From Azolla caroliniana (lineage: Eukaryota > Plantae > Polypodiophyta): 64,000 nucleotides of DNA. Location of the stretch: assembly GCA_043228905.1 (NCBI GenBank), contig JBHGNT010000014.1:13206001-13270000 (forward strand), read 5' to 3'. The notes beneath the pieces were generated by a model. The model ran no database searches, was not told the origin of the DNA, and saw only the letters and a program-made list of their open reading frames with translations. This document shows, in pieces, positions 2,309 through 29,483 of the stretch; the first letter of the stretch is position 1; each line of letters opens with the position of its first letter. The translations under genes and the position numbers were made by a program.

Positions 2309-2607
2309 TTTTGGCACTCCAGGTGTCAGGAATAGTACTAAGCAGAGATGGAATTAGTACTAAAGAAGAGCAGTACTATTAGTACTAAGAGGACGAGACT
2401 ACGTAAGACTCCCGAGAGAGAGAGAGAGAGAAGCGAAAAGAGAGATAGCGAGGATGAGAGAGAGAGAGATGATGATGATAACAACCAATATATTATGTGA
2501 AGGATAAGTACAAAATGGCTAAGAGGCTTAAGACTGGCGTTGAACCAATTTGGTTCAAAACAATGAATGCCTTGTGCCTCCTTTTATAGTGTTTTTAGGA
2601 ATAATCC

Positions 2608-2627
2608 TGAAGCTTCTAGAATGTTCC
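2608..2627. promoter_or_regulatory. Heat-shock element in LTR
   Basis: tGAAgcTTCtaGAAtgTTCc = four alternating nGAAn units about 20 bp upstream of the minus-strand TATAAAAG (2581-2588). Confidence 0.8.
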
Positions 2628-2695
2628 AGAGAGATCTGGAATATACATCAATTTTCTATGATAAAACATAAATGAAAATAATATCCTACAAATTA

Positions 2696-2766
2696 CAATT
2701 CATAGTCTAATGGTAAGAGCTCGACCCATGTAGCATAAGTTCATGGGTTCGAGTGTTGCCATATCA
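2696..2766 (+). other. tRNA-like Pol III A/B-box module in LTR (antisense to the element)
   Basis: A-box TAGTCTAATGG 2703-2713, B-box GGTTCGAGT 2746-2754; cloverleaf degenerate. Confidence 0.6.
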
Positions 2767-2782
2767 TGACACTATCTCCCCC

Positions 2783-5700
2783 TTAAAGACGACGAGTGGA
2801 ATGAGTCGGCGCTAATTGCGGGTTGGGTTTGTCCGGATACTTTTGCTGGAAATAAGCAAGAAGATCCTGTGCATTGGCAACATGCTCGACGGGTTCCCAA
2901 GTACGTTCACTCGGACTATAACCAAGCCAATCAACCAAGTAATAAAGTTTGTTGCGAACAAGTTTGGAATCGAGGATGGCAGCAACTTCATACTCCGGGC
3001 CGGCGTCGAACTCCAGTGGGGGCGGCGGTGGTGTCACACGATCAGGAATGGTGTTTGCTTTATAAGGTTCAAGAAGAGAACAATGGAAAACCGGATGTAT
3101 TTGAAGTTGCGAAGGGAGATCAAGGCGGAATGTTACATCATTAATCTTACCCGTAATACGGAAGGGACCGAGTCGTCGATAATCCAACTTGTCGCATGGT
3201 CGAGTAGTCTTGATGTGACGACGTAAGAGCCATACTCGATCTCCGATGGCAAAAGAGGAGGGAATCCGATGACGATCCGCATAAGTATTTTGTGTGTGTT
3301 GAGCATGACGAAGGGTAGCCTCTTCAAATGATCCTCGGCACGAGGGTTGGTAGGTAGCTCCGGGGTGTCGATCATCGACCAGCGAGGATGGAAACCGGTA
3401 TAAGCGAAAAATGGGGAGACTCGAGTCGAGGAGTGAATAGCATTATTATACGCAAACTCCGAAAAGTGGAGAATCTCGGCCCAATCGTCCTGTTGATAAC
3501 TCAGGAAACACCGGAGATATTGCTCCAGCGTTTGGTTTGTTCGTTCCGCCTGCCCGTCGGTCTGAGGATGGTAGCTGGAGGAGAGGTTGCAGGAGACCTT
3601 GAGCATCTTGAAGAGATGTTGCCAAAATTTGGAGACAAATTGCGGTCCTCGGTCACTGATAATACTGTCTGGGAGGCCATGATGCCGAAATACCTCATGC
3701 ATATAACAAGAGCGGCGGTTTCCTCGCTATTGATGGCTTTAGTACACGGCACAAAATGTGCCATCTTCGTATATCGATCGACGACGGTTAGGATAGCATC
3801 GAACCCCTTCGAAACTGGCAGATCTGTGATAAAATCAAGACAAATAGACTGCCATGGCTTACTTGGAATTGGTAAGGCTTCCAATAAGCCATATGGATGG
3901 TGTCGTGGCATCTTTGCTCGGCAGCAAGCATCATAGGTCCGAACGTAGTCGTTGACAAAACGGCGCATGTGGGGCCACCAAAAAGATCGGTGCACTAGCT
4001 CCAACGTCTTAGTACTACCGAAATGTCCCGCCGTATGAGTGTTGTGACAATACTGGACGATTTGAAGGCGACAGGAGCAATAGGGGAGATATACGCACTT
4101 TTTAAAGAATAACAAACCATCATGATATTCGAATTGTCGGTAGTCAATAACTGGTTGTTGAGATCGAGAACAGGATGCCCGAGAAGTATCAATGTGCGCC
4201 AGGATGTCTTGAGCAAAACTATCCGTGTTCAAGGTTGCACGTATGTCATCGGTAATCCGTGAATCCATTGGGGTGTGAAAAATCCGCGTCGTGTGCAATC
4301 GTGTTGGTCCCAAGATTACTTGCTTTTGATTATCAAATGTTGCGTCACCAGGACGAGGTGCAATATATGAACGCCGTGATAGTGCATCTACCTTTTCCTT
4401 GCTGCTTCCCGGGTCGATATGTGATTTTGAAGTCGAAACGCATGAGGAATTGTGCCCACCGAGCTTGCCGTCGATTTAGTATGCCACCGTTCTAAAAATA
4501 AGCAAGATTTTTATGATCGCTAAAGACAAAGACCTGATGTGGAGAGCCCTCTAAGAAATGCCGCCATTGTACAAATGAATCCACGATGGCTAATAACTCA
4601 TTGTCATGTATTTCGTAGTTGATTTCTGCGACATCGAATTTGCGTGAATGGAAAGCCACCGGATGCAACTCTTCTTTATCTCCTTGTTGAGAAAGGATGC
4701 TACCGAGGGCAAAATCTGATGCGTCGGCCTCCATGATGAATGGTTTGCTTGTATCCACATGAGCTAGAATCGGTGATGATGTAAAGGCTTTCTTAAGATG
4801 CCGAAAAGCCATATCTGCTTCTATGGACCAAAGAAATGCTTGGCCCTTCTTCGTAAGTTGTGTGAGAGGTAAAATAATCTTCGAGTAATCCTGTATAAGA
4901 GGATGTGCATACCTATTCCGGATGGTGACTTTATTCAATCCACGGTTATCAACGACAAGACGAAGTGAGCCATCTTTCTTCTTGACAAAGAAGATGGGTG
5001 CACCGGCCGGAGATTTCGAATGACGGATGAACCCGCTTGCCAAGTTCTCCTCTATGTAGGCTTGAAGGACTTCTAACTCGGTGGGTGACAAGTTGTAAAT
5101 TGGTCCCCATGGTGGCTCGGTTCCTGGTTGTAAATCGATGGGACAGTCATAGGGACGGTGATGAGGAAGGGTACCGGCTTTTACCTTGTCAAATACATCA
5201 GCATAAGGATGATATTTTGCCGGAAGTTGTACTGAGGAGTCCTTCTTAATAGTGCTAGAAGGATGTACTGATATTGCAAATAGGAACATTGCCTCCTTGG
5301 GTCCTTCTTCGCGTAGTTGATGGAGTGAAATGGTCGAAACTCGGTGAGTTGATTCTTGGGGTGGTCGATATCGGACTTCTCTTGTTCTCCAATCTATGGC
5401 TGGATTATGAAATTCAAACCAAGGTAATCCTAGGACAATGGGATGCTCTAGACTACTAATTATATTAAATGATATTACACACACAAAACTACCTAGGACA
5501 ACTTGAATGGGTTCTGATTCTTCTACAATATTCCTGGAAGCAATGGGACGACGATCAATGACTACTACAGATGCGGGACAAGGAAGTTTTCTTAAGGATA
5601 TCTGAGAAGCTTGGGCAAAATTTCGATCCATGAAACAGGAATTAGCTCCGGAATCTAAAAGTGCTAGGATGGGTACTAGGGTAGTACTTTTAGTACTAAC

Positions 5701-5817
5701 AATGACTTGGGCTAGGAACACATTGCTAACTTGCTTGGAAGGAATGGAACCACTAATGGGCTGTACAGATCTAGGGCTGCTGTCCAACCAAACGGCTCCT
5801 ATTTTGGCTGGACTCAA
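2783..5817 (-). pseudogene. Disrupted pol of element 1 (protease, truncated RT, RNase H, integrase, chromodomain)
   Basis: LLDSGAN protease; [12 protein letters not shown] RNase H; GHFG..KT and CDxC-like zinc motif; SDRGPQF and QTDGQAER integrase; YEVAAILD...YLVDWLGY...TWEP chromodomain; RT YxDD missing; stop at 4492 and frameshifts. Confidence 0.92.
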
Positions 5818-5980
5818 TCGTTTAACTCTTCATCTAATTTACTAAGGATTTCAAATTTATTTGAGATACTTGGGCTATTAGTACTGTGAATGCTATCAAA
5901 CACTCTATTAGTACTATTAATACTATCAGACACTCCTAAGGGAAGAATTGACTCGGGTTTAGTACAGGCTACAATTTGAT

Positions 5981-6975
5981 TTACCTATCTTCTTGGCCTA
6001 TGGGGACAATTGATTGCGATATGCCCTGGTCCACCACAATAAAGACATAATCGATTTGCACGTCGTTGTTGCTTTTCTTCTTCCAATAACGGGCCACATC
6101 GACGCATGGTATCGATCTCCATCGGTGTCGAAGTATTTGCATGAGGTATGTCTCATGCAAACGGTTTAGCCGCGACTGCGGCGTAAGTGGGCTCCGGCCT
6201 AGCGTGTGGTATCTGTAATTGACGTTCCGAACGCCGTTCAAAAAGGCGGTTGTCACATCGGACTGCTTGACTAATTGTCTTCGTAAGAGATTTTGGTTCT
6301 TTGGGGAAGGTTAGAAGTAGATCTTTGACACCATTTCGTAGGCCATAGCGAAACTGCTCCATTAGTGCTTGATCATCCCAGGGTATGTCAGAAGCGAGTA
6401 GCTGGAAATCTGCCGCGTAGGCAGAGGCTGGACGATCGCCTTGACGCAATCGCCGGATCTTGTTGATCGCCGTCCTAATGTTGTCGGTGTCTCCAAAGCA
6501 GGCTTTGAACTCACTTATAAAATCTTCAAAGTTATTAAACAAGGGCGATTGTTTTTCTAGAAGCGGAGCAAACCATGCTAAGGCTGAGCCGCTAAGCAAC
6601 GTGCCTATTAAGCCGACTCGGGATGCATCAGTGGGGTATTGGGAAGGATGCATTTGGAGGACTAATTGTACCTGATTAAGGAATCCCCTGAATTGCGATC
6701 GCGTTCCATCAAATTTCACAGGAAGTCCAATCTTCGGCTCTTTATGAAATCCTTGGGGACTTGATCCTTGTTGTTGCAATGCCGCTTCGAGTTGTTGCAC
6801 CCCTAACGCTAACTCCCCATGCTGTTGTTGCGTTTGTTCCTTTTCTACTAAGAGCGATTTGTTGCAGATTCCCTATCAGCTGTTGGTTTTCTTGTTCCAA
6901 GGCAACAAATTTTTCTTTTAAGCATTGTAGCTCGGAGAAAACGGATTGATATTCTTGGGCACTAACAATAGCCAT
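5981..6975 (-). pseudogene. gag of element 1 (frameshifted)
   Basis: PVKFDGTRSQFRGFL...LLSGSALAWF capsid motif; CLYCGGPGHIAINC zinc knuckle around 6010-6050. Confidence 0.85.
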
Positions 6976-7000
6976 AGTATAGGGAAAAGGGTAGGAGGAA

Positions 7001-7012
7001 AAATTGGTTCAA
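7001..7012 (-). other. Self-priming type primer-binding site of element 1
   Basis: TTGAACCAATTT 2 nt downstream of the 5' LTR; no TGG tRNA-type start; complementary to LTR 7247-7236. Confidence 0.8.
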
Positions 7013-7014
7013 AC

Positions 7015-7462
7015 TGTCAGGAATAGTACTAAGCAGAGATGGAATTAGTACTAAAGAAGACCAGTACTATTAGTACTAAGAGGACGGGACTACGTAAGAC
7101 TCCCGAGAGAGAGAGAGAGAGAGAGAAGCGAAAAGAGAGATAGCGAGGATGAGAGAGAGAGAGAGAGATGATGATAACAACCAATATATTATGTGAAGGA
7201 TAAGTACAAAATGGCTAAGAGGCTTAAGACTGGCGTTGAACCAATTTGGTTCAAAACAATGCCTTGTGCCTCCTTTTATATTGTTTTTAGGAATAATCCT
7301 GAAGCTTCTAGAATGTTCCAGAGAGATCTGGAATATACATCAATTTTCTATGATAAAGCATAAATGAAAATAATATCCTACAAATTACAATTCATAGTCA
7401 ATGGTAAGAGCTCGACCCATGTAGCATAAGGTCATGGGTTCGAGTCTTGCCATATCATGACA
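7015..7462 (-). repeat. 5' LTR of element 1 (HSE 7300-7319, TATA 7273-7280, A/B-box module ~7388-7457)
   Basis: Direct repeat of 2324-2771. Confidence 0.95.
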
Positions 7463-7589
7463 CTAGGGAGGGCGAATCCTTTCTATATAGGAGGGAGGTC
7501 CTATTCTTTCTTGGTGTTAGTGTATTACATTAACTAAGCAATGTAGTTCGCGTTTTCGGGTGAAAGAACACAAGATGCTGGTGCGTTTT

Positions 7590-8460: not shown

Positions 8461-8564
8461 TGTCATGAACAGTACTGAGACAGAGAAGGAGTTAGTACTA
8501 AACGAAGGATTAGTACTATGAGAGGTGTGGAACTTCTTCGAGAGAAGGAAAAAGTGAGCGAGAC

Positions 8565-8603
<39 letters not shown>

Positions 8604-8898
8604 TGATAAGAAAGATATTTATTATATGAAGAGAATATACAACGGTGGCTAAAAGGCTTAAGACTGGCGTTGAACCAATTTGGTTCAACATAATGCCTAG
8701 TGCCCTCTTTTATAGTGTTTTCAGGAGTAATCCTGAAGCTTCTAGAATGTTCCAGAGAAATCTGGAATATACACTAATTTCCTATAATAAAATGTAAATG
8801 AAAATAATATCCTACGTATTACAATAGATGGTCTAATGGTCAAGAGCTCGACCCATATAACCTAAGGTCATGGGTTCGAGTCTTGCCATATCATGACA
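8461..8898 (-). repeat. 3' LTR of element 2 (HSE 8734-8753; A-box 8829-8839; B-box 8873-8883)
   Basis: Homologous to the element 1 LTRs, with U5 side diverged and U3 side conserved; 8-bp terminal inverted repeats. Confidence 0.9.
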
Positions 8899-9573
8899 CT
8901 ATCCCCCCTTTAAAACGACGAGTGTCACGAGTCGTCTTGGATTGAGGACCCGGTTTGTGTGGATATTGACGATGGAAGTCTTCAAGAAGAGCACGAGCAT
9001 TGGTTACATTCTCGATCGGTTCCCAAGTACGTTCGCTGGGACTATAGCCTAGCCAATCGACTAGATAGTAGAGCTTGTTGCGAACAATCTTGGAATCAAG
9101 AATGGCGGCAACCTCGTACTCCGGCCCATCTTCAAGCTCGATCGGGGGTGGAGGTTGGATAAGACGTTCTGGGATGGTGCTCTCGTGGTAGGGTTCGAAG
9201 AGAGAACTATGAAACACCGGATGTATCCGAAGTTGAGGAGGTAGATCGAGACGAAAAGCAACATCATTAATCTTTCCAATAATACGAAAAGGACCTAATC
9301 GTCGATAATCCAACTTCTCACATGGGCGAGTAGTCTTGATGTGTCGTCGTAGCAACCACACCCGATCTCCAATATTAAAACTAGATGGAAGTCGATGACG
9401 ATCCGCGTAGACCTTGTGTGTTTGTTGAGCTTGCTGGAGATGAGTAGATAAATCCGCTTGTATCTTGCGTAACCGCTCCAAACGATCCTCCGCGCACGGA
9501 TTTGTGGACACCTCTGGGGTTTCAAGTACACTCCACCGGGGGTGACATCCCGTATAAGCATAAAATGGCGTAA
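8891..9573 (-). pseudogene. pol C-terminus of element 2 (integrase C-term, GPF motif, chromodomain)
   Basis: KLDYRRLGPF, IHPVFHSS, EYEVAAILDSK...YLVDWLGY...TWEP. Confidence 0.9.
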
Positions 9574-9578
9574 CTTTA

Positions 9579-10196
9579 TGTTGGGATTATGGTCCCTTTC
9601 GGATGGGATGGTCGGATGTCCGAAGGTGAATGCCGACAAGCCCGGTTTCGGTTTCGGAACCGGATGATGAAGACCCCGGTTTCGGTACCGGATGACGAAT
9701 GTACCCGGAGAGAGATCCGGATGCGGGGACATATCTGCGAATATGTTTGCCAAGGGCCCTTGAGGCTATAGTTGTAAATAGCCCTAAAAGTCATATGTGT
9801 ATAAATATGACTTAGGGCAAACAGTTTTGTCGTTGCTATTCATTTTTCTGTTTTTCCACTCTAGAGGAGTGAAGAGAGAGAGCAGCCGTGAGAGAGAGAT
9901 AGATCGCGCGAGAGAGAGAGAGGAAGAGGTCGACGCCTCTGTGTATTTCCACCGCCTGTGGCGAGGACAACGAGCTCAAGGTCGTCGCCTTGCAGCTCGC
10001 CATTGTATACTTCTCTTTGTATAGTGTTGGTTTGGAGTCTTGTACTCCCGTGGTTTTTCCCATCTAGGGTTTTCCACGTTAATCCTTGTGTTCGCGTTTT
10101 GTTTCTCCGTTTGGTTCCTATTTTCTGCTGCATTGATCCGCGATTACTCGGTTGTGGCCGAGTGGAGAAGGTGAATCGAAGTGTCGATTCTCCACA
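9579..10196 (+). repeat. Copia 5' LTR
   Basis: Direct repeat of 14311-14928; TATAAAT near 9799. Confidence 0.97.
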
Positions 10197-10226
10197 AACT
10201 GGTATCAGAGCGAACTGCTGCAGAAA

Positions 10227-13200
10227 ATGGAAGGCGGCGGCAGCGGGCAGCCGGGGATGATGGTGCTGAATGCGCAGAATTACGCCGACTGGAAGATCAA
10301 TATGGAGGATCTTCTGATTGTTCGGGACCTGTACGAACCGATTGACAGGTCGGAAATACCGAAAGGGGTACTTGAGTCGGAGTGGAAGCTCCTGAACCGG
10401 AAAGCCGTAGCGACGATCCGACAATATGTCGATGTAAGCGTCCTACAACATGTGGCGAACGACACCAACGCATGTGAGATGTGGAAGAAGCTGTCGGGCC
10501 TCTACGAGAGGAAGAATGCGTTGAACCGGACCTCCCTGATGAGGAAGATAGTGAACCTCAAGTATCGGGACGGCGAGAGTATGGTGGAACACGTAAGCAC
10601 GTTCATGGGATTCGTGAATCAGCTTGCGGCGATCAAGTTCCCGTTGGAGGATGCAATGCAAGCCATCATCCTGATGTGTACATTGCCGGAAAGCTGGGAG
10701 AACTTGGTGGTGACTCTCAGCACCTCCTGCACAGAAGATAACTTGTCCTTGCAAACGGTAAAGACGAGTATTTTGAATGAAGAAGCGCGTCGGAGAGATA
10801 AAGAACCGGCCTCCGACCCGAAGGCGCTGCTTACCGAATCGGATCGGGGAAGACAATGGAACCGGAGTCCGCAAAGACGGGAGAAGTCGGGGACCCGGTC
10901 GCAGTCAAGAGGAAGGCCCACATGCTTCCACTGTGGGAAGCCGGGGCACTTCCGAAAGAATTGTCGGCATTACCGAAAAGACAACGGAGCCGACGACACC
11001 GATTCGAAGAAGTCACCGGAGAGAAACGGTGCATACCGGGGAGCCACGGACCGGAGAGGTTCGGATTGGCGAGGGCAGGACAGGAAAGGAACGACGGCAC
11101 TCGCGGCAAGTGAGGAAGAAATCATGGTCATCACCGAAGAAGGTGAACTAAACATTGCTGGCGATGAGACGACCTGGGTGGTCGATTCCGGAGCATCGTT
11201 CCACCTGACCCCGGAGAGAAGATACTTCTCATCCTACACAGCCGGTGAGCATGGCTGTGTTCGAATGGGAAATGAAGGTACGTGCCGGATTGCCGGCATA
11301 GGAGACGTGTGGTTGACAACCCCGACCGGATGCAAAATGCTGCTGAAGGATGTCCGACACGTTCCGGAGGTTCGATTGAACCTGATTTCGGCCGGGAGGC
11401 TAGACGATGAAGGCTACACAGGTAGCATCCGGAATGGCGTGATGAAGTTCAGCAAGGGGAGCCTGATAGTGGCTCGGGCCCGTAAAGACAACACACTGTA
11501 CCTTATGAATGCCCGGTTATGTCCGGAAGAGCTGAATGTGGCAGCCGACACTACCGGTGAGCTGTGGCACAAAAGACTGTGTCACATGAGTGAGAAGGGG
11601 ATGAAGAGGCTTGCAGAAGACAACCTTATTCCAGTGAAGCATGTGCACCTGGAGAAGTGCACCGATTGCCTGGCCGGTAAGCAGAACCGAACCTCCTTCC
11701 ACTCAAGGCCACCGACGAGACGTAGAGCACCATTGGAGTTGGTGCACACCGATGTGTGTCAGGTAGAAACGAAGTCACATGGCGGAGCCCAGTACTTCGT
11801 AACATTCATAGACGATCATAGCCGAAGACTGTGGACGGCACCGATGAAGACAAAGGACCAAGTGTTGTCCGTCTTCAAAGAACTCCACGCGAGAGTGGAA
11901 AGAGAATCCGGCAAGAAGCTGAAAGCGATACCAGCGGATAACGGAGGGGAATACCGGGGACAGTTCCAGGAGTACTGTCGCTCGAAGGGAATCCGGCTCG
12001 AGATTACTGTGCCGAAGACGCCGGAACTGAACGGGCTGGCCGAGAGGATGAACTGGACCATAATGGAGAGGGTCCGGAGCATGCTGGCACATGCGAAATT
12101 ACCCAAGGGGTTTTGGGCTGAGGCAATGTCGACGGCGACATATGTGATAAACCGATCACCCTCAGTACCTTTGGACGGAGACACGCCGCAGAGAGTGTGG
12201 ACCGGTAGGGAAGTATCCTACCGGCATCTGAAGGTGTTCGGGTGTCTCGCATACGTGCATGTGGCAAAGGACCGGAGAGGAAACCTAGATCCAAAGACCC
12301 GGCCATGCATATTCCTCGGCTACGGCGACGACGAGTTCGGCTACCGAGTATGGGACCCGGTCGACAAGAAGATATTCAGGAGTCGAGACATCATCTTCAT
12401 GGAGAACAAGACACTCGCCGACTGGGAGTCGGAGAAGAAGATGAAGAGCTCCAAGTCGATCGGTGAGGATCAACTCTACGAGGAGCAGTCCCGACCGGCA
12501 AGGGACCGGTTAGCACTCGAGGATCCGGCCGAAGACGGTGAAGAAACAGAACCGGCCGAAGAAGATGAAAATGATACCGGAACCGGCCCCGATCCCGAAA
12601 TGGATTCGGATGAAGAAGAATCGGAAGAACCGGTTACCGAAGCTCCAGAACGGAGATATCCTCTAAGAGAGAGAAGGGCCCCCCGGAGATTTCCGGAACC
12701 AGAGCACCTGTTGCTAACCGACGAGGGGGAGCCGGAGAACTTTGAAGAGGCAAAGCATGACACCCAGAGCCGCAGGTGGTTGAGTGCCATGCAGGACGAG
12801 ATGGATTCCCTGCATGAGAACCACACATATGAACTTGTGGAGCTGCCGAAAGGAAAACGGGCACTCCGTAACAAGTGGGTGTTCAAGCTGAAACCGGGAG
12901 ATGCCGGAAACCCCCCGAGATACAAAGCCAGGATCGTGGTGAAGGGGTTTCAGCAGAAGAAGGGCGTCGACTTCGACGAGATATTTGCCCCGGTAGTGAA
13001 GATGACCTCCATCCGGACGGTGCTGAGCATAGCGGCAAGCATGGACCTCGAGGTAGAACAGATGGACGTGAAGACGGCATTCCTTCACGGTGACCTCGAT
13101 GAAGAGATCTACATGCAGCAACCGGAAGGATTCGAGAAGAAAGGGAAGGAGCACCTGGTATGCCGGTTGAAGAAGAGCCTTTACGGACTGAAGCAGGCCC

Positions 13201-14300
13201 CCCGGCAATGGTACCGGAAGTTCGACTCCTTCATGAACGACGAAGGGTATCTCAAAACGCAGTCCGACCACTGCGTGTTTGTGAAGAAGTTCGAAGGAGG
13301 AGACTTTCTAATACTCCTCCTGTACGTGGACGACATGTTGATTGTCGGACGGGACCAGGTCAAGATACGGATGCTGAAGAAGGCTCTTCACCGAACCTTC
13401 TCAATGAAGGACCTGGGTTCGGCGAGACAAATACTAGGGATGCACATCATCCGGGACCGGAAGAAGAAGCTGTTGTGGTTGTCACAGGAGAAGTACGTGA
13501 CGAAGGTGCTTCACCGGTTCAACATGTCGAAAGCAAGACCGGTCGGATCGACCCTCCCGGCAAACTGCAAGCTGTCCAGCAAGCAAAGTCCCAAGACAAA
13601 GGCTGAAAAGGAGGATATGATGAAAGTGCCGTATGCCTCAGCCGTCGGGAGCTTGATGTACGCCATGGTGTGTACGAGACCGGACATCGGATATGCAGTC
13701 GGAGTGGTGAGCCGGTACATGAGCAATCCCGGCAAAGAGCATTGGAACGCGGCCAAGTGGATACTCCGATACCTGAAGGGCACGGCAAACGTGTGCCTCC
13801 GATTCGGCTCCGGTAAGCCCGAACTCGACGGCTTCACCGATTCGGATATGTCGGCTGATGCAGATACCAGCCGGTCCACATCAGGGTATGTGATGACGTA
13901 TGCAGGTGGAGCTGTTTCATGGCAGTCGAGGCTGCAGAAGACGGTTGCGTTGTCAACCACGGAGGCGGAGTACATGGCGGCTGTTGAAGCCGGCAAGGAA
14001 ATGATATGGATGAAGGACTTCATTAGAGAGCTCGGTATCCGACCGGAGGAGTACCGACTCTACTGCGACAGTCAGAGCGCAATCCACCTTGCGAAGAACG
14101 CGGCCTATCACTCCCGGACGAAGCACATCCAGCGAAGATATCACTGGATCCGGGAAAGGATAGAAGACAAGGAGTTCGTGCTGACGAAGATCCACACGGA
14201 CGAGAACGGGTCGCATATGCTGACCAAGGTGCTTACACCTGACAAGCTGGAAGCATGCCGGAAGAGGATAGGATTGGAGAGACATCCCATACCGAAGTGA
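10227..14300 (+). CDS. Copia gag-pol polyprotein (1357 aa)
   Basis: Uninterrupted ORF: CFHCGKPGHFRKNC knuckle, WVVDSGAS protease, WHKRLCH..CTDC, DNGGEY integrase, QMDVKTAFLHG and LYVDDML RT, FTDSD/TEAEY RNase H. Confidence 0.96.
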   Translation: MEGGGSGQPGMMVLNAQNYADWKINMEDLLIVRDLYEPIDRSEIPKGVLESEWKLLNRKAVATIRQYVDVSVLQHVANDTNACEMWKKLSGLYERKNALNRTSLMRKIVNLKYRDGESMVEHVSTFMGFVNQLAAIKFPLEDAMQAIILMCTLPESWENLVVTLSTSCTEDNLSLQTVKTSILNEEARRRDKEPASDPKALLTESDRGRQWNRSPQRREKSGTRSQSRGRPTCFHCGKPGHFRKNCRHYRKDNGADDTDSKKSPERNGAYRGATDRRGSDWRGQDRKGTTALAASEEEIMVITEEGELNIAGDETTWVVDSGASFHLTPERRYFSSYTAGEHGCVRMGNEGTCRIAGIGDVWLTTPTGCKMLLKDVRHVPEVRLNLISAGRLDDEGYTGSIRNGVMKFSKGSLIVARARKDNTLYLMNARLCPEELNVAADTTGELWHKRLCHMSEKGMKRLAEDNLIPVKHVHLEKCTDCLAGKQNRTSFHSRPPTRRRAPLELVHTDVCQVETKSHGGAQYFVTFIDDHSRRLWTAPMKTKDQVLSVFKELHARVERESGKKLKAIPADNGGEYRGQFQEYCRSKGIRLEITVPKTPELNGLAERMNWTIMERVRSMLAHAKLPKGFWAEAMSTATYVINRSPSVPLDGDTPQRVWTGREVSYRHLKVFGCLAYVHVAKDRRGNLDPKTRPCIFLGYGDDEFGYRVWDPVDKKIFRSRDIIFMENKTLADWESEKKMKSSKSIGEDQLYEEQSRPARDRLALEDPAEDGEETEPAEEDENDTGTGPDPEMDSDEEESEEPVTEAPERRYPLRERRAPRRFPEPEHLLLTDEGEPENFEEAKHDTQSRRWLSAMQDEMDSLHENHTYELVELPKGKRALRNKWVFKLKPGDAGNPPRYKARIVVKGFQQKKGVDFDEIFAPVVKMTSIRTVLSIAASMDLEVEQMDVKTAFLHGDLDEEIYMQQPEGFEKKGKEHLVCRLKKSLYGLKQAPRQWYRKFDSFMNDEGYLKTQSDHCVFVKKFEGGDFLILLLYVDDMLIVGRDQVKIRMLKKALHRTFSMKDLGSARQILGMHIIRDRKKKLLWLSQEKYVTKVLHRFNMSKARPVGSTLPANCKLSSKQSPKTKAEKEDMMKVPYASAVGSLMYAMVCTRPDIGYAVGVVSRYMSNPGKEHWNAAKWILRYLKGTANVCLRFGSGKPELDGFTDSDMSADADTSRSTSGYVMTYAGGAVSWQSRLQKTVALSTTEAEYMAAVEAGKEMIWMKDFIRELGIRPEEYRLYCDSQSAIHLAKNAAYHSRTKHIQRRYHWIRERIEDKEFVLTKIHTDENGSHMLTKVLTPDKLEACRKRIGLERHPIPK

Positions 14301-14310
14301 AGGGGGAGTT

Positions 14311-14928
14311 TGTTGGGATTATGGTCCCTTTCGGATGGGATGGTCGGATGTCCGAAGGTGAATGCCGACAAGCCCGGTTTCGGTTTCGGAACCGGATGAT
14401 GAAGACCCCGGTTTCGGTACCGGATGACGAATGTACCCGGAGAGAGATCCGGATGCGGGGACATATCTGCGAATATGTTTGCCAAGGGCCCTTGAGGCTA
14501 TAGTTGTAAATAGCCCTAAAAGTCATATGTGTATAAATATGACTTAGGGCAAACAGTTTTGTCGTTGCTATTCATTTTTCTGTTTTTCCACTCTAGAGGA
14601 GTGAAGAGAGAGAGCAGCCGTGAGAGAGAGATAGATCGCGCGAGAGAGAGAGAGGAAGAGGTCGACGCCTCTGTGTATTTCCACCGCCAGTGGCGAGGAC
14701 AGCGAGCTCAAGGTCGTCGCCTTGCAGCTCGCCATTGTATACTTCTCTTTGTATAGTGTTGGTTTGGAGTCTTGTACTCCCGTGGTTTTTCCCATCTAGG
14801 GTTTTCCACGTTAATCCTTGTGTTCGCGTTTTGTTTCTCCGTTTGGTTCCTATTTTCTGCTGCATTGATCCGCGATTACTCGGTTGTGGCCGAGTGGAGA
14901 AGGTGAATCGAAGTGTCGATTCTCCACA
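14311..14928 (+). repeat. Copia 3' LTR
   Basis: Direct repeat of 9579-10196. Confidence 0.97.
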
Positions 14929-17047
14929 CTTTAGTGGATGCGTGGATAGAGTTGTTATAGGCAAATTCGGCGAAGTGGAGAATATCTGCCCAGTCGTCCT
15001 GATGATAGCTGAGAAAGCACCGCAGATACTGCTCCAACGTTTGATTTGTTCGTTCAGCTTGGCCGTTAGTTTGTGGGTGGTAGCCGGAAGAGAGGTTACA
15101 AGTGACCTTGAGCATGTTAAAAAGGTGCTTCCAGAATTTTGACACGAACTGGGGTCCACGGTCGCTGATGATACTATCGGGGAGTCCATGATGCCGACAT
15201 ACTTCACGCATGACAATTTCGGCAGTGTCTTCACTGGAGATCTCCTTAGTACATGGCAAGAAATGAGCCATCTTCGTATATCGATCGACCACCGTTAGAA
15301 TCGCATTGAACCCCTTAGAGACTGGAAGATCTGTGATGAAGTCTAGAGCAATGGATTGCCACGGCTTGCTTGGAATTGATAATGGTTCTAATAAACCATA
15401 TGGATGATGCCTTGGCATTTTCGCTCTGCAACATGTATCACAAGTCCGAACAAAATCCTCGACAAATTGTCGCATACAGGGCCACCAGAATGATCGTTGT
15501 ACTAAATGTAATGTTTTAGTACTACCAAAATGCCCAGCTGTATATGTGTCATGACAGTTTTGTACTACTCGAAGGCGGCAAGAACCATTAGGAACATACA
15601 AAAGTTCTTTAAAGAAGAGTAATCCATCATGGTATTTGAATTGCCGATAGTCCGTACCTGGTGGTTGCGACTGTGAACACGACGCTCGAGAGGGATCAAT
15701 TTGTGCTAGTATAGCTTGGGCGAACGCATCTGTCTTCAAGTCTTCACGTATGGTATCGATAACGCGGGAATCCATAGGCATGTCAAAGATTTGTGTTGCT
15801 TGTAATCGTGCCGGTCCCAAGATGACTTGTTTTTGGTTATCGAAAGCTGGCTCGCCGGGACGGGGTGCTAGATACGAACGCCGTGATAATGCATCTGCCT
15901 TCCCTTGGTGCCTCCCCGGACGATATGTAATTTTGAAGTCGAAACGCGTGAGGAAGTGGGCCCACCGAGCTTGATGTCGATTCAACACACGAGCATCCTG
16001 AAAGTAGGCAAGATTCTTGTGGTCACTAAATACGGTGACTGGATGAGAGGATCCCTCCAGAAAATGCCTCCATTGCATAAAAGAATCCACTGTTGCCAAT
16101 AGCTCCTTATCATGGATTTCGTAGTTGATTTCGGCAGCATCAAACTTGCGTGAGTGAAAAGCCACAGGATGTAGCTTTTCATCATTCCCCTGTTGTGACA
16201 GAATGCTCCCCAATGCAAAATCCGATGCATCAGCTTCGATAATGAATGGTTTCTCCGGATCGACATGAGCTAGAATTGGAGCCGATGTAAATGCTTTTTT
16301 AAGACTCTCGAAAGCCATGTCCGTTTCTTCAGACCAGGTGAACGGTTGTCCCTTCCTGGTAAGTTGTGTGAGAGGTAGAACGATCTTTGAGTAATCCTGT
16401 ATGAACTTCCGGTAAAAATTGGCAAAGCCTAAGAAGCATTGCACATCCCGTACCGAACGCGGAGTCTGCCATTCTACCACCGTTCTGACCTTAGCTGGGT
16501 CCATGGAGATGCCTTCTAACGAAATGATGTAGCCGAGAAATTCCACTTGGTTGCACCCGAAACTACATTTTTCTAGCTTTGCATACAGACCATGTTCTCG
16601 AAGTCGTTTTAGTACTAATAGTACATGAGAATCATGTTCTTCTTGGGTCTTTGAATAAACCAATAGATCATCCAAATAGATGATCAAACAATCATCCAAT
16701 AGATCTCGGAATATATCATTAGCCATGTGCTGGAAGACTGTCGGCGCATTAGTGAGGCCGAACGGCATGACAGTATACTCGAAGTGCCCATATCTGGTGC
16801 GAAACGCGGTCTTCCATTCGTCTCCTGGTCGGATCCGTACGAGGTTATATGCTCCCCGTAAGTCGATCTTCGTGAAGAACCTGGCACCATTGATCCGTTC
16901 TAAAAGACTTGAGATAAGGGGAAGAGCATACCTATTCCTGATTGTAACCTTATTCAAGCCACGGTAATCTACAACGAGACGAAGCGATCCATCTTTTTTC
17001 TTGACGAAGAAAATGGGCGCACCGGCTGGAGATTTCGAATGCCGAAT
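14929..17047 (-). pseudogene. pol of element 2 (RT, RNase H, integrase core), open up to the Copia insertion
   Basis: KIDLRGAY, MPFGLTNAP, YLDD, EADASD, CDTC, SDRGPQF; frame continues (STKV|TPFYAY) across the TSD. Confidence 0.93.
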
Positions 17048-17147
17048 NNNNNNNNNNNNNNNNNNNNNNNNNNNNNNNNNNNNNNNNNNNNNNNNNNNNN
17101 NNNNNNNNNNNNNNNNNNNNNNNNNNNNNNNNNNNNNNNNNNNNNNN
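17048..17147. other. Assembly gap (100 N)
   Basis: Run of N; sequence after the gap is not element 2. Confidence 1.
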
Positions 17148-27395: not shown

Positions 27396-29381
27396 TATTG
27401 TTCATCTAAAGAAAAAGGAAAAGGAAAAAGTAAGAAGATAAAAAATAAAAAAAATTTAAGTAAATATAGGAAAGAGAACTTTTGGGGGGATTTTTGAACG
27501 TGCCTCCTCCAGTGTTGGGAAAAGTTTATAACCCCTACCGGAAATTTTCCTGCTGCATATGATCCTAACCAGAAATTAAAAATTTTAACCGGCCACTTTC
27601 CTACTAGTGATAATGTCAACCGGAACATGCTAAAAAAACATTTTTAGCACATACCAAATTTTTTTAGCACAATATGAGGTTGCAACATAGATAGAGGACA
27701 TTATATAAAGCAAATGTGCTCTCTCCCCTTCTCTCCATATACATATGGACATAGAGAGTCAACTAATCATTATGTTGTCCTAGATAATATATATCAAAGT
27801 ATCCGCACCACATGAGATCATTTGAGTTCAATTGACAAAACCCTCCCCCCTTGATAATAGAAGCATTGTTCCATCAGTCCAAAACAATTACCGATACCAC
27901 TAAATCCATACATACTAGTTATGATTTAGTGAGTTCTAACATTATAGTCGAAAGTTTGTTATTGGCCAGCTCTCACAAATGTAAAAAAGGTCAAGGCAAA
28001 AGAATGGTACTACAAAGAAAAACAAATATACAGAAGCTAAACATGTGGATATCGATAGCTATGCAAACGTAATAAATTCCAATATATATACGTAGTCCAA
28101 GTAAGATAACATACAATACATAGCACATAGCAATAAAAAAAGAGTCACCATCATTTCCATCTTTTCTAGAAACCAAAGGAAATGGCTTTCGAAGTGTGCA
28201 TCTTTTCCAAGGGTAATTTGAGAAACAACTATTAAGATTCAAGAAACAATTTCTAAATTCATGGATTACAAGGAAGAAATTATAGCAGACTCTTGTTGTG
28301 GTACATAGTATATATGCACCCTTAGATTCAGATTCATTTTCACTCTCAGTATCAAAAAATTTGTCTTCTTCATGTTCATCAGCACTGAAGTCATCTCCAA
28401 TTGACTTAATGTTAGCCACTTTTTCATCACCATCCAAGGCCATAGAAGTTGCATCATTAATGATGTCAGGTAAATTAAAACAGCGGCCAATCTTTCACAT
28501 ATAAGAAAAGGGAATTCAAATATGTCAGAACACATAGAAGGGAAACCTAAACTTCCACAGAACATAAAACGAAACCATAACTACCTTTCACTAGTTCATA
28601 AGACAAAACCATATTTATCTTCACAAATTACCCGTAGCCAACCCTAACATTTCTTTCATGGAAAGAAAAATGCATCCCTAATTCCAGAGAATTAAATAAA
28701 ACACGAGCACTTTTCAGCTTGATATAATAAAAAGAAACCTTAATTATCTTCTAGGAAACACAAAAGGAATCCCTAAATATCTTTCACGGATTGAAAGGAA
28801 GCTCTAAACTTACAACCGTTGTCCACAGAGGTAACCATATGCATAAATAAAGCAAGTCTTTCCAATGGACAAAACACAATAGCGAGCACCAATCTTTCAT
28901 AGAGAACAAGACGAACACCGGATCATCTTTCACAAATTGAAAACGAGACCCATAACCTTTCAAAACTCAAGCAATTATAGAAGAAGGAAAGCATAACATT
29001 TCACAGAGAGTACTTACAGACCTTTCATAGAAAGAAAAATGATACCTTAATCTTCCTAAACTCAACGAAAATCCAGCTATTATAGACCTAGATTTTGCAA
29101 TCGATGAGATGGGAGATACTTTTGTTGGGGGGAGAGTAGTAGTAACATATCAAGGGAGAGGTGTGAGTGCACAAAGAGAGAGAGAGATACCTTAGAACAA
29201 CGAGCTGGAGATGTCACGCAATCGGCGAGCAGGGAGCAGGGAGCGGCAAGCTTCGAGCAGCGATCAGAAGGAAAACATGGAGCAGTTGTTGCTAGTGATT
29301 GTCAGTTGTGGGTTCGAAACCCAACTTCCTCACCTCTCTATTATATACTTCTTATATATCTCTTAATTCACTAGATGCCAT

Positions 29382-29450
29382 TGTGAAATATAGGGGTCGA
29401 ACCCATGACCACCTAGTCTCCATTGGGCAACCTTACCAACTAAGCTACAT
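29382..29450 (-). mobile_element. tRNA-derived (SINE-head-like) sequence
   Basis: Minus-strand A-box TAGCTTAGTTGG (29447-29436) and B-box GGTTCGACCCC (29403-29393); no intact cloverleaf. Confidence 0.6.
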
Positions 29451-29483
29451 CCATCTGGGCTCTCTCTTTCTTTCTCTCTCTCT

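What the first reader, a model, noticed from the sequence alone, without database searches (positions are those of the whole stretch)
8822..8893. Chromovirus LTRs carry an antisense tRNA-like Pol III module at the U3 edge
Seen: all three LTR copies (2696-2766, 7388-7457, 8822-8893), from two diverged subfamilies, end in T(A/G)GTCTAATGGT(C)AAGAGCTCGACCCAT-N13-ATGGGTTCGAGT(C/G)TTGCCATATCA just inside the terminal TGACA. This gives an A-box and a B-box at tRNA-like spacing (~43 nt); the 7015 LTR has a 1-nt A-box deletion. The arms CTCGACCCAT/ATGGG(T)TCGAG also form a hairpin whose loop varies while the arms are fixed. Established: Cassandra TRIMs carry 5S-derived Pol III promoters in their LTRs, and TFIIIC-bound B-boxes can act as chromatin barriers. 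Inference: the module could insulate the heat-inducible promoter from flanking heterochromatin, or drive an antisense RNA over the PPT and chromodomain from the 3' LTR. I do not know of this being described for plant chromoviruses.
Basis: partly seen in the sequence, partly recalled or inferred. Interest (0 to 1): 0.8.

Follow-up and report, generated by a model that had tools for sequence, protein, structure and literature searches.

The report
tRNA relic inside retrotransposon end hairpin
A high-copy fern retrotransposon carries a tRNA-like stretch, backwards, at the start of its terminal repeats; it was likely captured from a tRNA and is likely kept as a predicted hairpin used in copying the element, rather than as the Pol III promoter it resembles.

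Summary
All three LTRs carry an antisense A-box and B-box at tRNA spacing (43-45 nt). An independent tRNA profile scores copy 8829-8888 at 15.7 bits against a shuffled maximum of 8.0, and one outside copy reaches 22.7 bits on a tRNA covariance model. tRNA (or SINE) origin is therefore likely. The promoter reading is weak. The cloverleaf is lost and the stretch folds into a 19-22 bp hairpin (z about -5). Across contigs from several related species, conservation follows the stem (2 of 36 paired positions vary, 22 of 34 unpaired), not the boxes. The unpaired part of the A-box is the most variable stretch, with a consensus G changed in 0-47% of depth. There is no T-run terminator in the LTR. Distant self-priming chromoviruses also start their LTR with the motif pair TGTCARGA...TCYTGCCA, and one shares a 13-mer with the fern arm. 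Best reading: a tRNA fragment merged into an older U3-edge inverted repeat that likely serves replication or integration. No compensatory pairs and no RNA or ChIP data were obtained, so TFIIIC binding is not excluded. New variant of a known kind (Helenus-like, but autonomous and antisense).

The parts
8829..8889 (+). tRNA-like module of LTR c (tRNA positions about 8-67), antisense to the element
   Evidence: tRNA HMM 15.7 bits, E 8e-4; CM 7.3 bits, E 7.7
8829..8839 (+). A-box-like 11-mer; first 7 nt unpaired and variable, last 4 nt paired and invariant
   Evidence: 11.1 bits, p about 0.003-0.006; variation
8873..8882 (+). B-box-like 10-mer, inside the right arm of the hairpin
8836..8889 (.). 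Long imperfect inverted repeat (19-22 bp stem, 11-13 nt loop) at the U3 edge of LTR c; folds on both strands
   Evidence: z -5.2 on +, -4.6 to -4.9 on -; DNA parameters z -4.6/-4.9
2703..2762 (+). Module and hairpin (2710-2762) in LTR a; B-box last C changed to G
   Evidence: (8.1 bits)
7395..7453 (+). Module and hairpin (7401-7453) in LTR b; 1-nt deletion in the A-box
   Evidence: (13.8 bits)
2324..2771 (-). 3' LTR of chromovirus copy 1 (2324-7462; 5-bp target duplication with one mismatch at 2319-2323 and 7463-7467)
7015..7462 (-). 5' LTR of chromovirus copy 1
8461..8898 (-). 3' LTR of chromovirus copy 2 (body interrupted by a copia element 9579-14928; 5' LTR not seen beyond the N gap at 17048-17147)
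8899..8911 (-). Polypurine tract directly outside the U3 edge (also at 2772-2783)
   Evidence: sequence
7001..7012 (-). Self-priming site: 12 nt complementary to the LTR's predicted transcript start (palindrome, 8670-8688 in LTR c); no tRNA primer site
8734..8753 (.). Four alternating nGAAn/nTTCn pentamers (heat-shock-element consensus; label recalled, not from a call)
   Evidence: sequence
8708..8714 (-). TATA box of the element's own Pol II promoter, about 30 nt before the self-primer
   Evidence: sequence
8969..9118 (-). Chromodomain at the end of integrase (also at 2840-2992)
   Evidence: Pfam PF00385, E 7e-15 and 1e-13

Best explanation
The module is a tRNA-like sequence, likely captured from a tRNA or SINE head, that lies antisense at the U3 edge and forms a predicted long hairpin, which is likely kept as a signal for copying or integrating the element rather than as a Pol III promoter. 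Shown: the tRNA-like sequence, the folding potential, conservation of both arms, and a matching motif pair at the LTR start of distant self-priming chromoviruses. Inferred: an ancestral U3-edge inverted repeat (TGTCARGA...TCYTGCCA type) had short matches to the tRNA D-loop and T-loop. A template switch onto a tRNA-like RNA just after PPT-primed plus-strand initiation would leave exactly this: the complement of tRNA positions about 61 to 8, a few bases inside the LTR end. The anticodon arm was then remodelled to pair with the T-arm. The hairpin would act in single-stranded form next to the PPT. A weak tilt in tolerated changes points to the antisense strand (first-strand cDNA). The role could be plus-strand initiation, primer removal or end recognition; which one is not resolved.
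For: Origin: the 18-mer covering V-loop and T-arm occurs in 74 viral loci, 61 of 74 inside ARAGORN tRNAs; a control 18-mer from the left arm occurs once. An HMM from 78 phage tRNAs lacking the core 10-mer ranks the three LTR copies 2nd-4th in the window (15.7, 13.8, 8.1 bits; best of 21 null windows 8.0), on the + strand only. The A-box alone scores 11.1-11.7 bits in 3 of 9 copies (tRNA median 11.6; p 0.001-0.006) at modal spacing. Copy L006 has an intact D-stem and a 17-nt anticodon arm, CM 22.7 bits, rough E 3e-5. The likeness survives nulls that keep the lineage letters: 0 and 1 of 20,000 reach 15.7. Maintenance: 2 of 36 paired versus 22 of 34 unpaired positions have a minor allele of about 5% or more in any of 4 runs, and two of three left-arm bulge-zone positions vary. 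Divergence among 7 copies is 0.03 (left arm), 0.055 (right arm), 0.16 (loop), 0.20 (A-box 5' part), 0.15 (spacer). Lineage: 3 of 7 distant LTR starts have TCYTGCCA exactly, 5 of 7 with at most one mismatch (chance about 0.5% each). L113 (47% Pol identity to a close relative) has a perfect 10-bp stem and a 13-mer identical to the fern arm (1 of 4,976 null windows scores as high). Selaginella SM-Tcn1 shows the motif by eye.
Against: No compensatory change in 20 pairs over 8 copies, so pairing itself is not proved and invariant arms could be a protein-bound inverted repeat. Only L113 among 7 distant LTR starts folds clearly better than shuffles (z -3.3; the others +1.2 to -2.0), and the motif was defined after seeing L113. 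The B-box lies wholly inside the stem, so B-box selection cannot be separated from stem selection, and the bulged T of the B-box shows no variant at 2% or more. The variation data are depth-weighted, unphased contigs; contigs with indels are clipped, positions are not independent, and matching may favour conserved stretches. Both strands fold well, so the acting strand is uncertain. The template-switch origin is inference only.
Confidence: 0.58

Rival explanations
1. A working type 2 Pol III promoter makes an antisense hairpin RNA (pre-miRNA-sized 54-nt stem-loop, as in foamy-virus U3 cassettes) that runs over the PPT from the 3' LTR, or into host DNA from the 5' LTR, and regulates the element.
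For: Both boxes score like real tRNA boxes at correct spacing. The upstream region is AT-rich, with a TATA-like run at -39 to -30 in LTR c and CAA at -7 to -5 in LTR a/b, the places reported for plant tRNA genes (sequence; PMC3082873 passages). Seven of nine listed stem variants keep a G-U pair on the antisense strand. SFV LTR miRNAs use A/B boxes with hairpins (PMC3993851 passages).
Against: A-box consensus letters T1, G3 and A7 vary: G3 is changed in 15, 17, 21, 47, 33, 0 and 0% of depth in seven runs, T1 in 29% and A7 in 23% in one run, and G3 is changed in 3 of 6 outside copies. There is no T4 in the LTR after the hairpin; the first T4 lies at 2841, 7553 and 9825, whereas SFV cassettes need a terminator at the stem base. 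Each subfamily has only one of the two upstream motifs, and such matches are common in AT-rich DNA.
Confidence: 0.12
2. The B-box alone binds TFIIIC (ETC-type site) and acts as a chromatin boundary or organiser at the LTR edge, shielding the heat-shock promoter; the A-box is dispensable.
For: High-affinity TFIIIC binding comes from the B-box, and B-box-only ETC sites exist (PMC11724288 passages). The B-box is nearly invariant, including its bulged T. A perfect four-unit heat-shock-type array lies about 120 nt away.
Against: It does not explain why the non-box left arm is equally invariant and complementary. The B-box C56 (8877) changes to T in 9.7, 8.3, 5.1 and 1.5% of depth, 3 to 8 times more than its B-box-neutral CpG partner, although strand-biased mutation could cause this. 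Transitions at both stem CpGs suggest methylated copies, which would hinder binding (inference from general knowledge).
Confidence: 0.1
3. No tRNA was captured: the lineage's U3-edge inverted repeat supplies the GG/AAGA and TCGAGTC letters, and the rest of the tRNA likeness is chance.
For: L113 has the same arm letters without any tRNA score. Rfam and ARAGORN see nothing. The scan covers very many windows, so rare chance hits will be reported.
Against: With those letters fixed, only 1 of 20,000 null modules reaches the observed score. The V-loop, D-stem and exact 17-nt anticodon-arm spacing in L006 have no hairpin role.
Confidence: 0.1
4. The arms are a double-stranded DNA inverted repeat read by sequence (integrase subterminal site or a dimeric transcription factor), with no hairpin role.
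For: The arms are invariant rather than covarying. The TCYTGCCA motif is kept by sequence in distant elements that fold poorly. It is a near-complement of the integrase end motif TGTYANR given for Sushi-type LTRs (PMC3601003 passages).
Against: Integrase specificity is reported for the terminal 8-15 bp, while the conserved arms reach 63 bp inward. Tolerated changes favour wobble pairs on one strand, which a duplex site would not predict; this tilt is weak.
Confidence: 0.1

Closest known systems
Helenus (tRNA-bearing TRIMs; 'TRIMp3'; Kojima 2024, PMC10886601; parts 1-5 of 6 of the text, figure legends and a supplement passage read)
   Same: tRNA-derived sequence with A and B boxes inside an LTR; cloverleaf mostly non-functional; one plant case (Selaginella). 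The paper also says that 'not a few' Repbase LTRs contain part of a tRNA.
   Different: Helenus is non-autonomous, 311-1263 bp and tRNA-primed. In the consensus sequences I saw the tRNA is in the sense direction, as a proposed promoter for the element. Here the element is a coding chromovirus with its own TATA promoter, self-primed, and the tRNA part is antisense, at the U3 edge and folded into a long stem.
Cassandra and Ajax (5S-bearing TRIMs; as described in PMC10886601)
   Same: Small-RNA-gene sequence in both LTRs.
   Different: 5S (type 1) promoter, non-autonomous; transcription shown for Cassandra. None of this applies or was shown here.
Tcn1-clade chromoviruses (Novikova 2010, PMC2864245, passages and supplement S3; Neumann 2019, PMC6317226, passages)
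   Same: Gag-Pol with C-terminal chromodomain, about 445-bp LTRs, 5-bp target duplication, self-priming instead of a tRNA primer site.
   Different: Those papers report the clade in mosses and club-mosses; this host is a fern. The SM-Tcn1 LTR shows no A/B-box module by eye. Neither paper's passages mention a U3-edge hairpin or the TCYTGCCA motif.
Sirevirus U3 inverted repeats and palindromes (PMC3601003 passages; PMC4728375 abstract)
   Same: Inverted repeats at the 5' end of U3 near the PPT; hairpin-forming LTR regions that can feed small RNAs.
   Different: Copia lineage; the Sirevirus repeat pairs with sequence upstream of the PPT; no tRNA origin.
Simian foamy virus LTR Pol III miRNA cassettes (PMC3993851 passages)
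   Same: A/B boxes together with a hairpin in the LTR of a retroelement.
   Different: They have a T-run terminator at the stem base and proven expression. Here there is no terminator and the A-box is not held.

Membership tests
Helenus / TRIMp3 | tRNA-derived sequence in the LTR | tested here: met
Helenus / TRIMp3 | Short non-autonomous element without coding region | tested here: not met
   Copy 1 is 5.1 kb with gag, RNase H, SH3 and chromodomain matches
Helenus / TRIMp3 | tRNA part in the sense direction, able to transcribe the element | tested here: not met
   tRNA score only on the + strand; the element is on -
Helenus / TRIMp3 | tRNA primer-binding site | tested here: not met
   12-nt self-complementary primer site
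Type 2 Pol III gene | A-box and B-box at tRNA spacing | tested here: met
   43-45 nt; both intact in 1 of 3 window copies
Type 2 Pol III gene | Boxes conserved above their surroundings | tested here: inconclusive
   A-box 5' part not conserved; B-box conserved but inseparable from the stem
Type 2 Pol III gene | T-run terminator closing the unit | tested here: not met
   No T4 in the LTR; first T4 at 2841, 7553, 9825
Type 2 Pol III gene | TFIIIC/Pol III occupancy and transcript | not testable with these tools
   No usable RNA run or ChIP data
Functional tRNA gene | Cloverleaf with acceptor, anticodon and T stems | tested here: not met
   ARAGORN 0, Rfam 0, CM 7.3-7.4 bits for window copies
Tcn1-clade chromovirus | Integrase with C-terminal chromodomain | tested here: met
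   PF24626 and PF00385
Tcn1-clade chromovirus | Self-priming, no tRNA primer site | tested here: met
Tcn1-clade chromovirus | Placement in the Tcn1 branch of an RT/RH/IN tree | not tested
   No tree built; likeness to SM-Tcn1 proteins judged by eye only

The most novel reading that the evidence does not exclude
An autonomous, heat-responsive plant chromovirus has grafted a tRNA promoter onto an ancient U3-edge replication hairpin, so one 60-nt element does two jobs: a structural signal beside the PPT, and a TFIIIC/Pol III site that makes an antisense hairpin RNA or sets a chromatin boundary at thousands of LTR ends.
Probability: 0.17. Interest if true: 0.8.

Novelty: new variant of a known kind. 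Interest (0 to 1): 0.47.

Why it matters
tRNA-derived LTR sequence has been described for short non-autonomous elements, in the sense direction. Here it sits antisense in a coding, self-priming chromovirus of very high copy number across several related host species. It gives a candidate route for small-RNA-gene capture at the plus-strand start, and a warning that A/B-box matches in LTRs need not be promoters. The motif pair shared with distant self-priming chromoviruses points to a cis-signal at the U3 edge that I did not find described, and it can be tested on short templates. If TFIIIC does bind, thousands of LTR ends would be candidate chromatin organisers in a fern genome.

Tried and rejected
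No whole genome is held for this window, so no genome-wide LTR alignment was possible. No RNA holder was listed; run X19, guessed as RNA, was relabelled 'probably DNA'. Neither bears on expression. ARAGORN at relaxed thresholds is uninformative: 226 calls in the window at -ps70, and the one call on LTR c is on the other strand. blastn against phage records gave only 18-19 nt matches at E 2-6, three of ten rows under annotated tRNAs. Viral contigs gave no relatives of the element, and the gapped module pattern gave none in genome contigs. I considered that the module came from the solo tRNA-like element at 29381-29454, which shares 14 nt. Rejected as unsupported: its alignment scores (40-48) do not exceed the best of 78 unrelated tRNAs (50-57), and it lacks the hairpin (z -0.2). 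I considered a general, strongly folding U3-edge hairpin in all relatives: only 1 of 7 has a clear z-score. The sigma-70 promoter and terminator scan does not apply to a plant. The DNA of the close sister families found as proteins could not be obtained. Searches of our earlier findings by place and by sequence gave nothing on this module.

Full report
Setting. The window is from a fern: the best named relatives of a ribosomal L54 gene in it are from Ceratopteris (64%) and Adiantum (61-67%); the genus was not determined. Two copies of a chromovirus lie on the - strand. Copy 1 spans 2324-7462 with LTRs at 2324-2771 and 7015-7462 and a 5-bp target duplication with one mismatch. Copy 2 has its 3' LTR at 8461-8898 and is interrupted by a copia element. 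Integrase ends in SH3 and chromodomain. There is no tRNA primer site; 12 nt after the 5' LTR are complementary to the LTR about 30 nt past the TATA box, which indicates self-priming, as reported for the Tcn1 clade (PMC6317226, passages). No tree was built, so 'Tcn1-like' rests on these features and on likeness by eye to SM-Tcn1. The family is very abundant: 2,723-5,058 contigs per run were laid on a 321-nt stretch in 4 runs, and runs under at least five organism labels hold it.

Observation. It is confirmed. Only LTR c has both boxes intact.

Is it tRNA-like beyond chance? Standard finders say no: ARAGORN found 0 genes and Rfam gave no tRNA match at E<=10 in 8 kb or in 131 nt. Sequence-level tests say yes. 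The 18-mer spanning V-loop and T-arm was found in 74 viral loci, 61 of them inside ARAGORN tRNAs of many isotypes; a left-arm 18-mer was found once. I built a profile from 78 of 101 phage tRNAs (type I length, three-letter anticodon, core 10-mer excluded). It ranks the LTR copies 2nd to 4th in the 64-kb window (15.7, 13.8, 8.1 bits), on the + strand only; the best score in 21 null windows was 8.0. Given the B-box position, the A-box scores 11.1-11.7 bits in 3 of 9 copies, 8.6-9.2 in 2, 6.0 in 3 and -0.2 in the deleted copy. A covariance model from 70 of those tRNAs gives only 7.3-7.4 bits in the window but 22.7 and 16.7 bits for outside copies L006 and L003; the other 3 of 6 with a module match gave 7.5-9.6 bits and L007 gave none at E<=5. 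L006 has a paired D-stem and a 17-nt anticodon arm. These models are bacterial and phage tRNAs with rough E-values; no plant tRNA set was available.

What is conserved? The stretch folds as one long stem: z -5.2 to -6.3 on +, and -2.1 to -4.9 on -; real tRNAs over the same positions have a median longest stem of 7 pairs against 19-22 here. In contigs from 4 runs (40 of 41 variant rows shown), 2 of 36 paired and 22 of 34 unpaired positions have a minor allele of about 5% or more. The seven unpaired A-box positions all vary. The consensus G3 of the A-box (TNGNNNANNNG; PMC11724288, passages) is changed in 15, 17, 21, 47, 33, 0 and 0% of depth in seven runs. The left arm, which is no promoter box, is as fixed as the B-box. 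The same holds among 7 copies: window a, b, c plus L001, L004, L006, L007; L002 is cut short, and L003 and L005 were left out as near-duplicates. Against a structural reading: no compensatory change in 20 pairs over 8 rows, and the B-box's bulged T is fixed too. Limits: contig depths are unphased, indel-bearing contigs are clipped, positions share ancestry, and L001-L007 may be collapsed repeats and were picked by the heat-shock motif, so that motif's conservation is partly built in.

A wider pattern. An alignment of 15 close Pol relatives found two distant elements among eukaryotic contigs mis-binned in bacterial assemblies, and more in the same bins. Seven had a locatable PPT and LTR start. 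The five for which the last reading frame was translated end in a chromodomain-like stretch, and 4 of 7 show a self-primer; none was found in the other three, where the contigs held may lack the needed part. Their hosts are unknown. L113 begins its LTR with a perfect 10-bp inverted repeat and shares a 13-mer with the fern arm; it has no tRNA score. The motif TCYTGCCA, near-complementary to the terminal TGTCARGA, is exact in 3 of 7 (one of which prompted the motif) and within one mismatch in 5 of 7, and is visible in Selaginella SM-Tcn1 (by eye). In the fern LTR the same pair sits 10 nt further inside and forms the outer stem. So the GG of the A-box and the 3' half of the B-box coincide with older lineage letters. 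Even so, nulls that keep these letters reach the observed tRNA score in only 0 and 1 of 20,000 trials, so both signals are real.

Mechanism. Most likely (0.58) a tRNA or SINE head was merged into the older U3-edge repeat and is now kept as a paired structure or end signal beside the PPT. The antisense direction and the position are what a template switch onto a tRNA-like RNA early in plus-strand synthesis would leave; this is inference. Seven of nine listed stem variants keep a G-U pair on the + strand (first-strand cDNA or antisense RNA) and two do so on the sense strand; biased mutation could also give this. A working Pol III unit (0.12) lacks a held A-box and a terminator. From LTR a the first T4 is at 2841, at the edge of the chromodomain, so such an RNA would cover the PPT but not the chromodomain; from LTR c none occurs before 9825. 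A B-box-only TFIIIC site (0.10) cannot be excluded. Chance likeness (0.10) and a duplex protein site (0.10) remain.

Literature. Ten full-text searches were run; I saw their listings. None listed a paper on a tRNA-like antisense module in a plant chromovirus LTR, or on the U3-edge motif. The closest is Helenus (PMC10886601; parts 1-5 of 6, legends and a supplement passage read), which is non-autonomous and sense, and which notes that many Repbase LTRs hold part of a tRNA. Others read: PMC2864245 (passages, supplement S3), PMC6317226 (passages, supplement list), PMC3601003, PMC11724288, PMC3082873 and PMC3993851 (passages), PMC4728375 (abstract and outline). The library lacks most subscription papers, including the 2008 moss chromovirus survey. 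The REXdb table and fasta were too large to read, and five DOC supplements of PMC2864245 were unreadable; they may bear on novelty.

Verdict. A real feature and a new variant of a known kind. tRNA origin is likely (about 0.85). The promoter or insulator role is not supported by conservation but is untested at the bench. Interest 0.47.

Noticed in passing
window 29381-29454 (-): Stand-alone tRNA-like or SINE-head-like sequence with good A and B boxes; the best tRNA score in the window (HMM 20.2 bits, CM 20.6 bits), not called by ARAGORN at default. A lone T-arm-like hairpin lies on the opposite strand at 29309-29323.
   Followed up: partly
L113 4473-4510; L139, L140, L135, L136 LTR starts; G005:C540:1441-1478: Motif pair TGTCARGA...TCYTGCCA(C) at the start of LTRs of distant chromodomain elements; a candidate lineage-wide cis-signal.
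   Followed up: partly
window 8795-8810 (and matching places in LTR a, b): A 16-nt AT-rich block is identical in all 8 aligned LTR copies within an otherwise variable spacer; role unknown.
   Followed up: no
window 8734-8753, 8670-8688: Four perfect alternating heat-shock-type pentamers, and a palindrome that holds the self-primer.
   Followed up: partly
PMC2864245 supplement S3, SM-Tcn1 497-510 and LTR about 394-406: By eye, the bases after the 5' LTR are complementary to a stretch in the LTR after the TATA-like region, suggesting self-priming, which that paper reported not finding.
   Followed up: no
window 9579-14928 (+): Young copia element (618-nt LTRs 99.7% identical, one 1,387-codon open frame) nested in chromovirus copy 2.
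   Followed up: no
window 4895 region of copy 1: Copy 1 lacks most of the reverse transcriptase region that copy 2 has (the alignment jumps from 16402 to 16914); it is a defective copy.
   Followed up: no
G005 (record behind L113): A bacterial genome bin of 7.8 Mb holds 145 matches to a retrotransposon Pol profile, so it appears heavily contaminated with eukaryotic repeat contigs.
   Followed up: no
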